A stretch of 64,000 nt of DNA from Burkholderiales bacterium (GCA_003241965.1 QBMB01000001.1:231068-295067), one strand, 5' to 3'; shown: positions 8,416-14,037, numbered from the stretch's first letter. Notes: generated by a model not told the origin, from the letters alone. Numbers and translations: made by a program.

Positions 8416-9291
8416 TCAGGCGGCAGGGGTAGCGGCCTCAGCTGCTGCTGGCGCAGGCACCGGGGCTTTGGCCTTGGCCTTGCCCTTGTTGGTGGCCACG
8501 GATGCAGCTGCGGCGTCATCGATCAGCTTGGCGGGGTCCATGCCGCCCAGGTCCAGGCTGGCGTCAGCGTCAGAGCCGTCGTTGGCGGTGGCGGTGAACG
8601 CAGCGATTTCCTTGCCCTGCTGTTCGACGATGGCGGACATGCCTTCGTTGACCTTGCCACCGGTGCGCTGTTCCTGGATCACGCGCTGTGCTTCGCGGTA
8701 GATCTTGATCACTTCGGTCTGCATGATGGAGCGGAAGGCGCGCACGGCCTTCTTGCAGATGTACTCGGCCTGGGCGCGCTGCGTGGAGTCGATGACGCCC
8801 AGCAAGTTGGCGGTGCCGGCCAGCAGGTTCACGCGGTCCAGCGCCACCAGCAGCAGGAAGTAGGAGCGCGCGTGCGTGGCGATCACGGGGACGGTCAGCG
8901 TCACCGGGTTGGGGTAGAGGGTGCTTTCGAGCGACACGTTGTTCTGCGACAGCAACTTCTCCAGACGGGTGATGGTGTTGTCCATCAGGATGTTGATGTT
9001 GGCCAGCTTCTTCGTGATCACTTCGTTGTAGCGCGCCAGAACGTCCTGATTGAAGGAGGTCCAGCTGCGGTACTGGTATTCCAGGTACAGCTGCTTCGAC
9101 AGGTAGGCGTAGTCCTTTTTGTAGAAGCGGATCGAGGGAGGCGACTCCAGCGTCTCTTCATCCAGGAAGACGACGGGCGTCTGCAGGTTGTGGGCATAGT
9201 CATCGCCGAAGACCTGAACGAGCGCACCCTGCCGGTTGGCGAGTACTTTGTTGATGGCTTCGAGTTCTTCAAGGGACGGGGCTTGTGTCAT
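8416..9291 (-). CDS. AcaB/DUF1845-family conjugative-element protein
   Basis: RSYFLLLVALDRVNLLAGTANLLGVID..QRAQAEYICKKAVRAF resembles DUF1845. Start taken at ATG 9291 (MTQAPSLEELE). Confidence 0.65.
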   Translation of the reverse strand: MTQAPSLEELEAINKVLANRQGALVQVFGDDYAHNLQTPVVFLDEETLESPPSIRFYKKDYAYLSKQLYLEYQYRSWTSFNQDVLARYNEVITKKLANINILMDNTITRLEKLLSQNNVSLESTLYPNPVTLTVPVIATHARSYFLLLVALDRVNLLAGTANLLGVIDSTQRAQAEYICKKAVRAFRSIMQTEVIKIYREAQRVIQEQRTGGKVNEGMSAIVEQQGKEIAAFTATANDGSDADASLDLGGMDPAKLIDDAAAASVATNKGKAKAKAPVPAPAAAEAATPAA

Positions 9292-9441
9292 GCGGGGCTC
9301 TCCAGCGGGGTTGAAATGTGCTGAATTGACTTTAGGACGCGCATCTACAAACGAAGGGCGACCTAACTGCGGAGAAACCACCCGATATCAGCCGGACGAG
9401 AGCCTTGAACCCAGAAAAATGCGTGATAAGTTAGTTCCAAG

Positions 9442-10713
9442 ATGACCAAACAGCTTTCCGCGTTGATCCCCGCAGCCGCATCGTTCGAGTACGGTGGGGC
9501 CGCGCTCGCCGTGGTGGGTGCCATGGCCGGAGCGTTGATCTGGGTCGTGCTGCCCTGGGCCACGCCAATCGCTCTGGTGTTGCCCTTCGTGCTGGGGCTG
9601 CTTCACAGCCAGCGCGCGGCTTTCTGGCTGGCCGGGGGCTACTACGCGGGTGCACTGAGCTTCCTCCCAGTGCTGGCGCTCAGCCCTTCCAGCACGGTGG
9701 GTGCAGCCGTGGGCATCCTTGCCATCTGGGTGTTTGGTTCGCTCATGGCTGGGGCGCTTTGGTCGCGTGGCCTGGATCCGAAGGGGAGGCCCCTCCACAC
9801 CGGCGCACGCATGCTCGCGGTGTGGTTCGTGGCGTTGTTCACGCCGCTGGGCCTGTTTGGACTCGCGCACCCTCTCTGGGGCTGGGCGTTCTCTGGCGAC
9901 GGTTTCATGGGCGTGGCATCGCTGGTCGTTGCACCACTGCTCACCTGCTTCCTGGTGCTGGCGATGCTCCACCAGCGTCACGACGGCACCAGCCCTTGGA
10001 CTTGGCACTCGGGGCGTGTTCTCTCCATTGCCTTGTGCGCTGTGCTGATCGGCAAGGGCATGGGTGACCACACGCGTGTCAGTTCGCAAGCGGGTCAGGC
10101 AGTGGGGCTACAGAGCAAGTGGGGGCCGCTGCAGGGGGGGCAGGCGCCATCGCTTGAGGATCGTCTTGAGCGTGTGAAGAAGGCGCTGCGTGAGTTCTCT
10201 CAGGTCCAGGGGGCACAGCCGCTGGTAAGTGTTCTGCTCACTGGTCAAGGCGCCTTTGGTGCGCTGCCTGCCCAGCCGCTGCTGGCGCCCGAAGATCGCC
10301 GCGGTATCACCGTGGGGCTCGGCGGAACGGTTTCGTCGCTTCCTGCAGTGATGTTGCTCCCTGAGGGTGGCGAGCCGCGTGTCGTGTGCTCGGCCTCGTT
10401 GCCTTCGGTGCTGTACGCATGGGCAATGCCCAGCAATGCTTGCATGGGCGATTCTCGTGTCCTGGCCGTCCCAGTTGGTGGCGGAACGAGCCAGAGCCTT
10501 CGGGTGCTGATGGGCGATGAGGCTTTGTTCGGCGGCCTGCAGGTGCTCGAGCAGCTGGCGCGGTCTCGGCAGTCGTTGGCGCTGGTGACCACTGTGCAGG
10601 ATCGTGCCGGCGTCCCTGCGCACACGGTTCAGATCAAGCACTTCAAGGCGATGTCGCTGCTCACCAAGACGCCCCATCTGCTGGCCACGAACCAACTGGT
10701 CGCCATCGATTGA
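9442..10713 (+). CDS. Multi-pass membrane protein, Lnt/TraB-like, apparently degenerate nitrilase domain
   Basis: About 7 TM segments with GGYYAG and HPLWGW motifs. The expected PES and ICYE positions read TGQG and MGDE. Confidence 0.55.
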   Translation: MTKQLSALIPAAASFEYGGAALAVVGAMAGALIWVVLPWATPIALVLPFVLGLLHSQRAAFWLAGGYYAGALSFLPVLALSPSSTVGAAVGILAIWVFGSLMAGALWSRGLDPKGRPLHTGARMLAVWFVALFTPLGLFGLAHPLWGWAFSGDGFMGVASLVVAPLLTCFLVLAMLHQRHDGTSPWTWHSGRVLSIALCAVLIGKGMGDHTRVSSQAGQAVGLQSKWGPLQGGQAPSLEDRLERVKKALREFSQVQGAQPLVSVLLTGQGAFGALPAQPLLAPEDRRGITVGLGGTVSSLPAVMLLPEGGEPRVVCSASLPSVLYAWAMPSNACMGDSRVLAVPVGGGTSQSLRVLMGDEALFGGLQVLEQLARSRQSLALVTTVQDRAGVPAHTVQIKHFKAMSLLTKTPHLLATNQLVAID

Positions 10714-11141
10714 CCCTGATCGCAAGCTCTCCAATAATGGGCCTGTCATCTGGTTTCCAGAGGCGGTGCAGATGGGACACTTGAACCTTCCGATCAATAA
10801 CTGCCCTTTGCGACGGCGACGGGCTACCTGAAAAGGTAACTGCAAGATGAAAGGGGTTCTTTGAACTCCTCATGGCGGGGGGCCTCGGCTCCCTGCCCAT
10901 GAAATTGCTGGATAGAATTCGCCAACGGGCAAGACGTGACGGCTTGGTAAACGAGCTGTGAGGTCTTCCTCGACGTAGTCGAAAAGAACGAAGCTGCAAA
11001 GCTCCGTTGCGTGTCCTGTACACGCCATTAACTGGTCTTGCGCACGAAAGTGCTCCTGATCGCCACCAACCTCCCTCGTGGGCACCTGTTGCCCATTGGG
11101 GTGATGGCGTGCCATGAGGTCTTCCTTCCAAGGTAAATCTC

Positions 11142-11279
11142 ATGAAAGCACTCGCCATCTCCGCCATCATCGCCATCGCAACCGTCAGCCTGGGCTCCAC
11201 TGTCCTGGCCAAAGGCACTTCGTTGGTGACCGAGCGAAACGCACAGATTCAATCCATCCTGGATGAAGCTGGCAAGTAA
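11142..11279 (+). CDS. 45-aa hydrophobic/secreted peptide, copy 1 (MKALAISAIIAIATVSLGSTVLAKGTSLVTERNAQIQSILDEAGK)
   Basis: AAGG RBS-like motif, N-terminal hydrophobic helix, paralog at 12008. Below the ORF-track cutoff. Confidence 0.8.
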   Translation: MKALAISAIIAIATVSLGSTVLAKGTSLVTERNAQIQSILDEAGK

Positions 11280-11575
11280 CAGCCGCAAGGCAGACACCGG
11301 GAGTCCTTCGGGACTCTCGGGCGTCGTTACTCATCCCACACCCTAGATACAACCGCCTTTCGGGCAAGACGTGACCGCTCTGTGCAGAGCCGTGAGGTCT
11401 TCCTCGACGTAGTCGAAAAGAACGAAGCTGCAAAGCTCCGTTGCGTGTCCTGTACACGCCATTAACTGGTCTTGCGCACGAAAGTGCTCCTGATCGCCAC
11501 CAACCTCCCTCGTGGGCACCTGTTGCCCATTGGGGTGATGGCGTGCCATGAGGTCTTCCTTCCAAGGTAAATCTC

Positions 11576-11713
11576 ATGAAAGCACTCGCCATCTCCGCCA
11601 TCATCGCCATCGCAACCGTCAGCCTGGGCTCCACTGTCCTGGCCAAAGGCACTTCGTTGGTGACCGAGCGAAACGCACAGATTCAATCCATCCTGGATGA
11701 AGCTGGCAAGTAA
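11576..11713 (+). CDS. 45-aa hydrophobic/secreted peptide, copy 2 (identical)
   Basis: Same sequence as copy 1, offset by 434 bp. Confidence 0.8.
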   Translation: MKALAISAIIAIATVSLGSTVLAKGTSLVTERNAQIQSILDEAGK

Positions 11714-12007
11714 CAGCCGCAAGGCAGACACCGGGAGTCCTTCGGGACTCTCGGGCGTCGTTACTCATCCCACACCCTAGATACAACCGCCTTTCGGGCA
11801 AGACGTGACCGCTCTGTGCAGAGCCGTGAGGTCTTCCTCGACGTAGTCGAAAAGAACGAAGCTGCAAAGCTCCGTTGCGTGCCACCTGCACGCCATCAAC
11901 TGATGAGTCCACTCCGGTGTTCTTGTCGTACATCAAACTCCCGCGCGGGCAAATCCTTTGCCCCTTGGGGAGCGGATTGCTTGGCGGGTTTCCATCTGGA
12001 GACCTTC

Positions 12008-12142
12008 ATGAAAGCAATTCTGCTGATCGTTGCAACGCTGCTCGTTGGTTACTTCGCCATCGGCACCGGCGTTTCCGCCACCGACCAGGTGGAGAAACGC
12101 ACCTCTCACATTGAGAAGGTGCTGGAGGATGCAACCAAGTAA
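12008..12142 (+). CDS. 44-aa paralogous peptide (MKAILLIVATLLVGYFAIGTGVSATDQVEKRTSHIEKVLEDATK)
   Basis: GGAG RBS. Same architecture as copies 1-2 (MKA start, hydrophobic helix, R..I..(I/V)L..A.K end). Confidence 0.8.
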   Translation: MKAILLIVATLLVGYFAIGTGVSATDQVEKRTSHIEKVLEDATK

Positions 12143-12163
12143 ACAGTTGCGTTGACTGAGAAC

Positions 12164-12193
12164 AGGGGATGGGCTTCGGCCCTCCCCTTTTTT
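12164..12193 (+). terminator. Intrinsic terminator ending the peptide array
   Basis: AGGGGATGGGC-TTCG-GCCTCCCCTTTTTT. Confidence 0.8.
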
Positions 12194-12425
12194 CAACTAC
12201 CCATTCCTGAGCGTGAGCAGTGCTGACTGCCCTGGCAATTGCCAGAGCCGTGAACACTTCTCGATGCATATCGGGCAGAGCTGGTCTTCGTGCCAGCAAA
12301 CACCACGCGGTTCACCCCGCAAACATCAACCCCGGCCGGGAACGCTTCCCGGTAAGGGGGGCATCTCGGCTATCCAGCTGGAGGCCAGATGGAACCAGTC
12401 ATCGCCGGCATCAGGGAGCAACCCC

Positions 12426-13133
12426 ATGAACGCCGCAGCGAGTGAATCCACCCCGCAATACCGACAGCTTCACCTGCCGATGTTCCTCCGCCATGAAATC
12501 GAGGCGGTGGAACAAGCCCAGCGACAGTCAGACCTGCGCAGAGACAAGGCCCTCAAAAAGTCCGGTGCACCCAAGACCTTCAAGGTAAGGGTCGCGTCCG
12601 CGGCTGAGGACTTGTTCGATGCAATTGATGACCGCTTGCTGGACATGCCGCTTGGAGGCGCCGAAGAGGGCAACGAACTGAACTGCGAAATTGACCCCCT
12701 GCGGGTCGAGATCGTGGAGATGTTTGACGCCGCTGATGCGCAGGAATCCGAGTGGTCCGATGCCGCCGTCGAGGAGTTACACGAAGCAGTCTTGCACTAC
12801 TCGTTGAAGCTCCTCCAGGCACGAGGCAACGGAGCAGAGAAGAAGGAGGTCCTGCAGTGGATCTTCGCCCCACCCACCATGGTTGCATTGGTCCACGACC
12901 AACAGATGCAGCCCGTCGAGGTATTCCTACCTCAAAACGCGACACCTTTCTCTTTCGAACAGTGCTGCCGCATCTGCGGCTACAGCTCTGAACGGCTCAT
13001 GGATGGCTTAGTCCCCATCCTCAAAGAGATCGGCCTTGGAAATGTCTTTAAGGAACTTTTCGATGGAAACAAAACTGACCGCCCAACAGCGGTACAACGT
13101 GCGATCGACCTTCGGGTTGATGGAAGCACCTGA
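12426..13133 (+). CDS. Hypothetical protein preceding the CobS-like AAA
   Basis: ATG at 12426 after GGGAG; contains VLQWIF...PFSFEQCCRICG; overlaps the next gene. Confidence 0.7.
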   Translation: MNAAASESTPQYRQLHLPMFLRHEIEAVEQAQRQSDLRRDKALKKSGAPKTFKVRVASAAEDLFDAIDDRLLDMPLGGAEEGNELNCEIDPLRVEIVEMFDAADAQESEWSDAAVEELHEAVLHYSLKLLQARGNGAEKKEVLQWIFAPPTMVALVHDQQMQPVEVFLPQNATPFSFEQCCRICGYSSERLMDGLVPILKEIGLGNVFKELFDGNKTDRPTAVQRAIDLRVDGST

Positions 13134-14037
13134 AACTGCAGAGATCCCCGGCCTCGCGCCTGGTCTCACCGGCGTCCCACCTTGCGACAACACCTACGTG
13201 TTCGATGCTGAGCGCATGCGCCAGCTGACGATGTTCTGGGTGGGGGGCTTCAAAGCCCTCTTGATCGAAGGTGACCCGGCAGCGGGCAAAACCTCGCTGA
13301 TCGAACAGTGGCATGCGCGTCTGAACGTGCCGCTCTACAAGGTGCCTTGCTCACCGACCACCGAAAGCTTCCGCCTGATCGGTCAGCTCCTGCCGACCGA
13401 AGATGGCAAGCTGGCGTGGAAGGATGGCCCGGTGCTCAAAGCTTGTCGTGAGGGCACCTCGGTGCTGCTCGATGAGTACAACACGCTCGACCCGGGCGAA
13501 GCCACCGCGCTGAACATGCTGCTGGAGGGCTACTCGTGGACGATCCCCGAAACGGGTGAAACCATTCTGCCCGCGAAGACCACGCGGTTCTTCGCAACGC
13601 AGAACGCCGTTGACAGCAAGGCTGCAGTGGCGGGCCGCAACATCCAGGACGTGGCCAACGACGATCGTTTCTCCTACATGGAGGTCGATTACCTCAAGCC
13701 CGAGCTGGAAGAGGCGCTGGTGCTGCGGCACCTGCTTGCCGGCAAGGTGGACAAGGCGGTGGCCGAGCAGATTTCCAGGATCTGCGTGAAGGTCGCCAAC
13801 AACGTGCGCGTGGCGTTCCGACAGGACGCGCCAGGTGTGGACAAGCCCTTGTCCACGCGAGTCGTGTTGCGTTGGGCCAAGTACACCGTCATGTACCAAA
13901 GCGTCATGAAGGCACAGAACCGAAGCGGGTTGCATTACGCGATTCGTCAGGCGGTGCGCATGAGTGCAGCCATGGCCGGAGCGGTCAACGAGCAGATCAC
14001 GGCCGTCGCAGGCTATGACGAAGACATGAACAGCTGA
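13063..14037 (+). CDS. CobS/CbbQ/MoxR-type AAA+ ATPase
   Basis: GDPAAGKTS Walker A, LLDEYN Walker B, WKDGPVL, FATQN and DRF. ATG at 13063 follows AAGGA. Confidence 0.9.
   Translation: METKLTAQQRYNVRSTFGLMEAPETAEIPGLAPGLTGVPPCDNTYVFDAERMRQLTMFWVGGFKALLIEGDPAAGKTSLIEQWHARLNVPLYKVPCSPTTESFRLIGQLLPTEDGKLAWKDGPVLKACREGTSVLLDEYNTLDPGEATALNMLLEGYSWTIPETGETILPAKTTRFFATQNAVDSKAAVAGRNIQDVANDDRFSYMEVDYLKPELEEALVLRHLLAGKVDKAVAEQISRICVKVANNVRVAFRQDAPGVDKPLSTRVVLRWAKYTVMYQSVMKAQNRSGLHYAIRQAVRMSAAMAGAVNEQITAVAGYDEDMNS

What the first reader, a model, noticed from the sequence alone, without database searches (positions are those of the whole stretch)
10926..12193. Array of three structured-leader plus ~45-aa membrane-peptide units, recently amplified
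Seen: two 434-bp units that look identical on inspection and a diverged third unit. Each has a long leader and a small MKA-hydrophobic helix-R..I..L..A.K peptide; one U-tract terminator closes the array. The peptides are missed by the 60-aa ORF cutoff. Established: type I toxin-antitoxin loci (Ldr/LDR, Ibs/SIB) are tandem repeats of folded mRNAs encoding small membrane peptides, and plasmid leading regions carry repeated ssDNA promoters (Frpo/ssi). Inference: a possibly new type I TA-like family, or early-expressed/exclusion peptides under dosage selection.
Basis: partly seen in the sequence, partly recalled or inferred. Interest (0 to 1): 0.7.

Follow-up and report, generated by a model that had tools for sequence, protein, structure and literature searches.

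The report
Translation-locked leader RNAs before tiny plasmid peptides
A conjugative megaplasmid carries one heavily folded transcript in which a conserved, previously uncatalogued RNA leader is repeated four times, three times hiding the start of a 44-45-residue membrane or exported peptide gene; one repeat is an exact recent copy, and what the peptides do is still unknown.

Summary
Window 10958-11447 equals 11392-11881 exactly (490 nt at an offset of 434 nt). A third, diverged unit follows, and a hairpin plus U6 terminator at 12164-12193 closes the array.

The leader is a real RNA structure on the sense strand. Across 13 homologues, 94.5% of pair cells are standard pairs and 17 of 44 pairs show compensatory changes. 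There are 57 G-U cells against 5 A-C cells, and the loops swap between GNRA and UUCG. The last helix hides the Shine-Dalgarno sequence and the AUG in every member checked.

The peptides are coding: dN/dS is 0.3-0.4, ribosome-binding sites are conserved, and 23 cluster representatives exist worldwide. Each looks like a signal peptide or membrane anchor followed by a conserved amphipathic tail.

New here:
- a conserved near-consensus sigma-70 promoter (10710-10738);
- a structured 5' segment (10739-10925);
- a fourth, diverged leader (12214-12425) before the next gene.

The locus is syntenic in Hydrogenophaga and Polaromonas megaplasmids, next to an AcaB-like regulator, PRTRC genes and ssb. Relatives carry one or two units; only this window has three.

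The ssDNA-promoter reading is rejected. A type I toxin-antitoxin reading remains possible, but no antisense RNA signal was found. Reads were unavailable, so the copy number is unverified.

The parts
8416..9381 (-). Divergent gene for a weak AcaB-like / PFL_4669-like regulator (context)
   Evidence: Pfam AcaB E 7.7e-4, below the family cut-off; NCBIfam TIGR03761 E 0.0047. The homologue in pPBL-H3 is annotated as an AcaB family regulator.
9442..10713 (+). 423-aa multi-pass membrane protein, weakly TraB-like (context; present only in the Hydrogenophaga lineage)
   Evidence: NCBIfam NF010401 conjugal transfer protein TraB, E 1.9e-11, far below its cut-off. Absent from the Polaromonas plasmid locus.
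10710..10738 (+). Near-consensus sigma-70 promoter (TTGACC, 17 nt, AATAAT); the likely start of the whole transcript
   Evidence: 10 of 12 matches. The same promoter at the same relative place, scoring 9-10 of 12, occurs in all ten loci examined.
10739..10925 (+). Conserved structured 5' segment with several hairpins, including a GC-rich hairpin at 10870-10902
   Evidence: In 10 homologues, 15 of 21 predicted pairs keep pairing through changes on both sides. The hairpin folds at -25.7 kcal/mol, z -5.0.
10926..11141 (+). Leader module 1 (A type): 5' domain 10926-11034 (helices P1-P4), a variable helix, P6, and P7, which hides the Shine-Dalgarno sequence and the AUG
   Evidence: Covariance model R1, 128.5 bits. 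Covariation. Start-site occlusion.
11142..11279 (+). Peptide A, copy 1 (45 aa)
   Evidence: Homologues P0005-P0007. dN/dS 0.32 against L016.
11297..11320 (+). Inter-unit hairpin, 10-bp stem with a UUCG loop and no U tract
   Evidence: -23.6 kcal/mol, z -3.3.
11361..11575 (+). Leader module 2 (5' end of the B type, remainder of the A type)
   Evidence: R1, 123.6 bits. Mosaic shown.
11576..11713 (+). Peptide A, copy 2, identical to copy 1
11731..11754 (+). Inter-unit hairpin, copy 2
   Evidence: Lies inside the exact repeat, at an offset of 434 from 11297-11320.
11795..12007 (+). Leader module 3 (B type)
   Evidence: R1, 123.4 bits. Fold.
12008..12142 (+). Peptide B (44 aa), 30% identical to A
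   Evidence: Homologues P0001-P0004.
12164..12193 (+). Intrinsic terminator (hairpin with a UUCG loop and one bulge, then U6)
12214..12425 (+). Leader module 4 (C type, diverged) in front of the 235-aa gene. It holds a short upstream ORF at 12389-12445 that overlaps the ATG at 12426.
   Evidence: The broader model R2 finds it as the fourth and only other match in the whole genome (18.9 bits, E 0.086). Its homologues score 19-42 bits. The architecture is shared, and 16 of 50 pairs covary in 9 sequences.
10958..11881 (.). Extent of the perfect 434-nt periodicity (2.13 copies). The 56-nt segment shared by all three leaders (10958-11013, 11392-11447, 11826-11881) is the likely crossover site.
   Evidence: Compared with the two-unit relative L011, the window has a clean 434-bp insertion.

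Best explanation
This is the promoter-proximal part of an operon conserved on a lineage of Comamonadaceae conjugative megaplasmids. A strong sigma-70 promoter makes one long, highly folded RNA. It consists of a ~190-nt structured 5' segment followed by repeated ~215-nt leader modules. Each module has a conserved 5' domain (four helices joined by invariant unpaired stretches) and a 3' hairpin in which an anti-Shine-Dalgarno stretch and an anti-AUG arm hold the ribosome-binding site shut. Three modules gate 44-45-aa peptide genes. A fourth, diverged module, lying after a terminator, gates the next gene through a short overlapping upstream ORF. The peptides are translated. They have an N-terminal signal peptide or membrane anchor and a conserved amphipathic C-terminal tail that most likely faces the periplasm. 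The RNA therefore works as a translational lock: it is transcribed strongly but is translated only when something opens the last helix (processing, a protein or a small RNA). The ancestral state is one unit. One sub-lineage has two old paralogues (A and B). This window gained a second exact A copy by unequal crossover within a 56-nt stretch shared by the leaders. Shown: the repeat, the RNA structure and its strand, the occlusion of the start site, the coding signal, the synteny and the copy-number pattern. Inferred: co-transcription from the upstream promoter, the membrane or periplasmic location, the need for a trans-acting opener, and any role in plasmid establishment or maintenance.
For: Repeat. 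RNA structure: 13 leaders, 44 pairs, 94.5% of cells paired, 17 pairs with compensatory changes, 0 of 500 shuffles as good, and slid controls at 36-44% paired. Strand: 57 G-U against 5 A-C cells, and the sense strand folds better in 12 of 13 sequences. The Shine-Dalgarno sequence and AUG are paired in the minimum-energy fold of all 12 members checked, and the 5' arm changes together with codons 2-5. The promoter is conserved in 10 of 10 loci. The 5' segment covaries. The fourth leader is supported. No conserved internal promoter lies on either strand. Coding: dN/dS is 0.30-0.37 for the moderately diverged pairs, with an excess of third-position changes, and a profile finds 23 cluster representatives with the same motif among 1.84 billion. 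Synteny (helicase, AcaB-like gene, unit(s), ~235-265-aa gene (not called in L160), AAA_5 ATPase, ssb) holds even for peptides only about 26-37% identical. Copy number is 1, 2 or 3.
Against: The transcript start, co-transcription, processing and translation are therefore inferred. Hydrogenophaga-type first units also carry a -10-like TAGAAT just upstream of the leader, so a second start is possible. Whether the N-terminus is cleaved is unknown; AlphaFold2 gives a single 42-residue helix (pLDDT 80), which does not decide it. The factor that opens the lock is unidentified. The third copy could be an assembly artefact arising from the 56-nt shared segment.
Confidence: 0.72

Rival explanations
1. 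Type I toxin-antitoxin (post-segregational killing) modules. Each unit would be a stable, folded, translationally inert toxin mRNA for a small membrane-damaging peptide, kept silent by an unstable antisense or trans-acting small RNA, as in hok/sok, ldr/rdl or tisB/istR.
For: The ORF is small and hydrophobic, with a long structured 5' UTR that occludes the start site. The promoter is strong. Copies stand in tandem, as with Ldr and Ibs (established knowledge). The location is a large low-copy plasmid near ssb, as flm/hok is in F (established knowledge; toxin-antitoxin genes in leading regions are noted in PMC11541004).
Against: No sigma-70-like promoter or conserved -10 element lies on the antisense strand in 12 aligned units. 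Nothing elsewhere in the 4.9-Mb genome is complementary beyond chance (best hit 18 nt, E 0.11). No Pfam, NCBIfam, PHROG or PADLOC hit to a toxin family was found. The same leader precedes an unrelated 61-aa two-helix protein in other plasmids, and a diverged copy precedes a 235-aa soluble-looking protein gene. The hydrophilic tail is the most conserved part of the peptide, and a signal-peptidase-like small-x-small site is common.
Confidence: 0.28
2. The leader 5' domain is a sensor or recruitment RNA: riboswitch-like, a protein- or Hfq-binding site, or a put-like processive antiterminator. On this reading it controls the whole downstream operon, including read-through of the terminator at 12164-12193, and the peptides are secondary cargo.
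For: The four-helix 5' domain has invariant unpaired stretches (an A-rich GAAAAGA joiner and two CAUCAAC stretches) and a conserved G-G mismatch within P1 (G in both columns in nearly all of the 13 sequences). The domain is repeated and is kept even where no ORF follows it (L153 5183-5290). No promoter is visible between the terminator and the fourth leader. The expression platform hides the Shine-Dalgarno sequence.
Against: No ligand or partner is known. No conserved alternative pairing between the 5' domain and helix P7 was found on inspection. The gene content gives no hint of a metabolite. There is no Rfam match. Antitermination was not tested.
Confidence: 0.2
3. The repeats are single-stranded-DNA promoters or priming signals (Frpo/ssi) of a plasmid leading region.
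For: ssb and other establishment-type genes lie downstream in the same orientation. Frpo elements can occur several times in a leading region (PMC11541004).
Against: Frpo is one long hairpin that mimics duplex -35, -10 and UP elements (PMC11541004). Here there are seven short helices and no -35/-10 pair. The structure is selected on the sense strand, not on the strand that would be the template (57 G-U against 5 A-C). GNRA and UUCG loops and pairing with the Shine-Dalgarno sequence and AUG are RNA-level features. The position of oriT relative to this region is unknown.
Confidence: 0.03
4. The third unit is an assembly artefact. The real plasmid would have two units (A and B), and the assembler went twice round a loop created by the 56-nt segment shared by the leaders.
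For: The two copies are identical to the base over 490 nt. The genome is a 177-contig draft. Every relative has one or two units. The repeat structure is exactly what a twice-traversed graph loop would give.
Against: Assemblers usually collapse tandem repeats rather than expand them. A 56-nt shared segment is shorter than the final k-mer of common pipelines for 150-nt reads. An unequal crossover gives the same structure. The 314-kb contig is otherwise contiguous.
Confidence: 0.2

Closest known systems
hok/sok-type and Ldr/Rdl-type type I toxin-antitoxin loci
   Same: Both have a small ORF with a hydrophobic N-terminus. The mRNA is long and tightly folded, and its own structure blocks the ribosome-binding site. 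Units of about 0.4-0.5 kb can stand in tandem, on plasmids near ssb-type genes.
   Different: No antisense RNA gene or promoter was found. The peptide has no sequence relation to Hok, Ldr, Fst, TisB or Ibs. The best-conserved part of the peptide is a hydrophilic amphipathic tail. The same leader is used for other cargo and, in diverged form, for a 235-aa protein gene.
Riboswitch-like and protein-binding 5' leaders with a Shine-Dalgarno-sequestering expression platform
   Same: A conserved multi-helix 5' domain with invariant joining nucleotides is followed by a hairpin that hides the Shine-Dalgarno sequence and the AUG. Covariation support is strong.
   Different: No ligand or partner is known, and no mutually exclusive alternative fold has been shown. 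The leader is repeated up to four times within one transcript. It occurs only on a narrow plasmid lineage. It is not in Rfam 15.
Frpo/ssi single-stranded DNA promoters of plasmid leading regions
   Same: These are also repeated structured non-coding elements upstream of early or establishment genes such as ssb on conjugative plasmids.
   Different: Frpo is one long DNA hairpin carrying -35, -10 and UP mimics on the transferred strand. This element consists of seven short helices selected on the mRNA-sense strand, with RNA tetraloops and no promoter hexamers.
Entericidin A/B and other small tandem envelope peptides
   Same: Both are tandem paralogous genes for peptides of roughly 40-50 aa with an N-terminal export signal.
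   Different: No lipobox cysteine is present in any family member, and there is no sequence similarity.

Membership tests
Type I toxin-antitoxin system | Small hydrophobic, membrane-targeted ORF | tested here: met
   The peptides are 44-45 aa with about 20 hydrophobic residues after MK.
Type I toxin-antitoxin system | Antitoxin RNA, either cis-antisense or trans-encoded with extended complementarity | tested here: not met
   No promoter-like site lies on the minus strand. No conserved -35/-10 pair or -10 element lies on either strand in 12 aligned units. No complementary stretch beyond chance exists in the genome. RNA-seq was not available, so a promoter of another type cannot be excluded.
Type I toxin-antitoxin system | Toxin mRNA folded so that translation is intrinsically blocked | tested here: met
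   Helix P7 pairs the Shine-Dalgarno sequence and the AUG in all 12 members, and it covaries with the first codons.
Type I toxin-antitoxin system | Sequence membership in a known toxin family (Hok/Gef, Ldr, Fst, TisB, Ibs and others) | tested here: not met
   Pfam, NCBIfam, PHROGs and PADLOC gave no hit at E 0.01. A PDB profile search found nothing significant.
Type I toxin-antitoxin system | Toxicity of the peptide when expressed | not testable with these tools
   This needs inducible expression in a laboratory strain.
Frpo/ssi single-stranded DNA promoter | A single long hairpin presenting -35, -10 and UP elements as pseudo-duplex | tested here: not met
   There are seven separate helices. 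No hexamer pair lies within 10926-12190. The definition is taken from PMC11541004.
Frpo/ssi single-stranded DNA promoter | Structure formed by the strand that serves as template for the downstream genes | tested here: not met
   There are 57 G-U against 5 A-C cells, so the pairing is kept on the sense strand and would be broken on the template strand.
Cis-regulatory structured leader (riboswitch-like) | Conserved secondary structure supported by covariation | tested here: met
   17 of 44 pairs are compensatory, 0 of 500 shuffles reach the observed values, and slid controls are far lower. The same holds for the 5' segment and leader C.
Cis-regulatory structured leader (riboswitch-like) | Expression platform acting on the ribosome-binding site or on a terminator | tested here: met
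   The Shine-Dalgarno sequence and AUG are sequestered in P7.
Cis-regulatory structured leader (riboswitch-like) | Defined ligand or partner and a ligand-dependent alternative fold | not testable with these tools
   Inspection found no conserved alternative pairing. Probing experiments are needed.
Any Rfam 15 family | Match to a curated covariance model | tested here: not met
   The only hit at E up to 1 over 9000-14000 is a chance snoRNA match (15.5 bits against a gathering score of 40).
Sec-type cleavable signal peptide | n-region with Lys/Arg, hydrophobic core, and small-x-small site before a polar mature part | tested here: inconclusive
   The pattern is visible in most of about 30 family members (for example VLA|K, VSA|T, VQA|E). 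However, the hydrophobic stretch (about 18-22 residues) is also long enough for a membrane anchor. No signal-peptide predictor was available, and AlphaFold2 gives one continuous helix.

The most novel reading that the evidence does not exclude
The ~190-nt 5' segment plus the repeated four-helix leader domain would be a new class of sensory or recruiting RNA: an orphan riboswitch, a protein-binding switch or a processive antiterminator. It would gate both tiny envelope peptides and the ssb-containing establishment operon of conjugative megaplasmids, with the module number tuned by unequal crossover.
Probability: 0.15. Interest if true: 0.8.

Novelty: new variant of a known kind. Interest (0 to 1): 0.55.

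Why it matters
The locus yields a well-supported structured RNA family that is not in Rfam, and a small-protein family that is not in Pfam or NCBIfam. Both are tied to one conserved position on PRTRC- and ssb-bearing conjugative megaplasmids of environmental Betaproteobacteria. Strong transcription combined with a double lock on translation of tiny envelope peptides is the design used by type I toxins. It is also the design of switch-controlled leaders. Finding what opens the lock would show how these large plasmids time an early or maintenance function. The one-, two- and three-unit series, together with the exact 434-nt copy, is a clean example of a regulatory RNA and peptide module expanding by unequal crossover. 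The family is rare (23 cluster representatives in 1.84 billion proteins) and its function is unknown, so the value lies in the lead, not in a solved mechanism.

Tried and rejected
1. A loose DNA pattern scan of genome contigs gave 119 stretches.
2. DNA search of 400 genomes of the order and model R2 on 150 genomes of the family found nothing convincing beyond Hydrogenophaga plasmids.
3. Model R1 was too narrow to see the window's own fourth leader (6.5 bits). The broader R2 was needed.
4. Pfam, NCBIfam, PHROGs, PADLOC and PDB sequence searches gave nothing for the peptides, the 235-aa, 241-aa and 335-aa proteins (one marginal PHROG of unknown function for the 241-aa, E 0.0098), or the 61-aa alternative cargo.
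5. The AlphaFold2 model of the 235-aa protein, built from a 5-sequence alignment, was unusable (pLDDT 39), so no fold search was run. The peptide model is a single helix and does not settle topology.
6. The search for a trans-acting complementary RNA in the whole genome returned only chance-level hits.
7. Scans for conserved internal promoters on either strand found none.
8. The apparent overlap of the peptide gene with the next gene in L162 is probably an over-extended gene call, judging from the sequence. No coupling is claimed.
9. An alternative pairing between the 5' arm of P7 and the 3' side of P4 exists in A-type leaders only and is not conserved, so it was dropped.

Full report
**Observation.** The region holds a tandem array as described. 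Tandem Repeats Finder gives a 434-nt period over 10926-11902, and the repeat finder gives two 100% identical copies plus a third that shares only the first 82 nt. A base-by-base comparison shows one perfect run of 490 nt at an offset of 434: 10958-11447 equals 11392-11881. Three small ORFs are present: 11142-11279 and 11576-11713 (45 aa, identical) and 12008-12142 (44 aa, 30% identical to the others). A hairpin with a UUCG loop followed by U6 lies at 12164-12193. The hairpins after the first two ORFs have no U tract.

**Context.** The window lies on a 314-kb contig, the largest of a 177-contig draft. The neighbourhood runs as follows:
- PRTRC genes;
- a UvrD-type helicase and a weak AcaB-like gene on the minus strand;
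- a weakly TraB-like membrane protein;
- the array;
- a 235-aa protein of unknown function, a MoxR/CobS-like ATPase, two unknown proteins and SSB.

This order is syntenic with 320-360-kb plasmids of Hydrogenophaga and Polaromonas. The same order is found in metagenome contigs even where the peptide is only about 26-37% identical. The unit is therefore a fixed component of this plasmid module, not a stray insertion.

**The leader is an RNA structure on the sense strand.** Three diverged leaders fold into the same set of helices, with z-scores of -4.0 to -6.0. An alignment of 13 leaders from eleven loci gives 44 consensus pairs:
- 94.5% of cells form standard pairs;
- 17 pairs keep pairing through changes on both sides;
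- none of 500 column shuffles reaches any observed measure;
- sliding the 3' partners by 1-3 columns drops pairing to 36-44%.

G-U cells outnumber A-C cells 57 to 5, and the sense strand folds more stably in 12 of 13 sequences. Selection therefore acts on the strand that has the sense of the ORFs. The loops of helix P3 and of the variable helix switch between GNRA and UUCG/UACG types, which is typical of RNA. The last helix (P7) pairs an anti-Shine-Dalgarno stretch with the ribosome-binding site, and an upstream arm with the AUG and codons 2-5. This arm differs between A- and B-type units in step with the coding sequence, and the pairing appears in the minimum-energy fold of all 12 members examined. 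No Rfam family matches.

- A near-consensus sigma-70 promoter lies at 10710-10738. It is conserved at the same relative place in ten of ten loci.
- The 187 nt between that promoter and the first leader are themselves a conserved structured segment: 15 of 21 pairs covary.
- The 5' untranslated region of the next gene (12214-12425) is a diverged copy of the same leader. Its homologues are hit by the leader model at 19-42 bits. Nine such sequences share the architecture, with 16 covarying pairs. With a broader model, the window's own copy is the fourth and only other match in the whole 4.9-Mb genome. It contains a short ORF (12389-12445) that overlaps the ATG at 12426.
- In aligned units, no promoter-like site or conserved -10 element occurs on either strand. 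Units 2 and 3 are therefore most simply co-transcribed with unit 1.

**The peptides are coding.** Each has a Shine-Dalgarno sequence at normal spacing. dN/dS is 0.30-0.37 for moderately diverged pairs, with an excess of third-position changes. A profile finds 23 cluster representatives among 1.84 billion proteins, all about 40-46 aa or longer gene calls containing such an ORF. They share a pattern: MK, about 20 hydrophobic residues, often a small-x-small site, then a polar stretch ending in a conserved tail of the form R/H..Q-I-E..L-D/E..A.K. This fits a Sec signal peptide or an N-in membrane anchor with the tail outside, but the data cannot decide between the two. No known family matches, and no member has a lipobox cysteine.

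**Modularity.** In two metagenome loci the same leader precedes an unrelated 61-aa protein with two hydrophobic segments (L152 and L153). In L153 that ORF is followed by only the 3' part of a leader and then the 44-aa peptide. A further 5' domain with no ORF comes next, and then the C-type leader. The leader is thus a movable module rather than a fold specific to one toxin mRNA.

**Copy number and origin of the extra unit.**
- One unit: the Hydrogenophaga plasmids pBPS33-1 and pPBL-H3, H. laconesensis, Polaromonas JS666 plasmid 1 and several metagenome contigs.
- Two units, A then B: one sub-lineage.
- Three units: only this window.

Compared with the two-unit relative L011, the window has a clean 434-bp insertion. 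Unit 2 begins like unit 3 and continues like unit 1, and all three leaders share an identical 56-nt stretch. This is what an unequal crossover within that stretch would leave. It is also what an assembler would produce by going twice round a graph loop. Because sequencing runs could not be searched, I put about 0.8 on a real duplication and 0.2 on an artefact.

**Mechanism.** I commit to a translational lock. The transcript is made from a strong promoter, is highly folded, and cannot be translated until P7 is opened by processing, a protein or a small RNA.
- Shown by computation: the structure, its strand, and the predicted occlusion of the start site.
- Inferred: the transcript boundaries, the existence of an opener, and the envelope location of the peptides.

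The closest functional analogy is the toxin mRNA of type I toxin-antitoxin systems. The defining antitoxin RNA was sought and not found. Together with the use of the leader before non-toxin-like genes, this keeps that reading at about 0.28. A sensor or recruitment role for the conserved 5' domain (riboswitch-like, protein-binding or antitermination) is at about 0.2; it could coexist with the lock. The ssDNA-promoter reading is rejected on strand, shape and absence of promoter hexamers, using the definition in PMC11541004.

**Novelty and score.** Both the RNA family and the peptide family are uncatalogued, and the RNA family has unusually good comparative support. The kind of element (a structured, translation-occluding leader before small envelope peptides) is known, the family is rare, and the function is unknown. 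I rate it a new variant of a known kind, with interest 0.55.

Noticed in passing
L152:1990-2178 and L153:4739-4924: A second small-protein family (about 61 aa, two hydrophobic segments) sits behind the same leader in two metagenome plasmid contigs. It has no hit in Pfam-independent libraries (PHROGs, PADLOC).
   Followed up: partly
window 12389-12445: An 18-codon upstream ORF with a strong GGAGG ribosome-binding site overlaps the ATG (12426) of the 235-aa gene in another frame. A comparable short ORF is present in the homologous leaders of L001, L002, L140 and L153. This suggests translational coupling, or a remnant of a peptide gene.
   Followed up: partly
window 10739-10925: The conserved 5' segment contains a nearly invariant ~30-nt stretch (10768-10797) that forms a hairpin, and a hairpin with an almost invariant GACGG loop. 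Its function is unknown, and it is absent from L152, where a promoter abuts the leader directly.
   Followed up: partly
window 10912-10925: Hydrogenophaga-type first units carry a -10-like TAGAAT/TAAAAT about 7-8 nt before the leader, with no clear -35. This may be a second, activator-dependent start.
   Followed up: no
window 10710-10715: The -35 hexamer of the conserved promoter overlaps the stop codon of the TraB-like gene (9442-10713). That gene is absent from the Polaromonas and pPBL-H3 versions of the locus.
   Followed up: no
L153:5183-5290: A leader 5' domain (41 bits) is followed by no credible ORF. It is either a decaying unit or evidence that the 5' domain has a role of its own.
   Followed up: partly
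L154:5001-5141: The weakest peptide-profile hits (for example P0020, E 3e-5) come from AT-rich, phage-like contigs with an intein-containing DNA methylase and no leader match. These may be unrelated look-alikes.
   Followed up: partly
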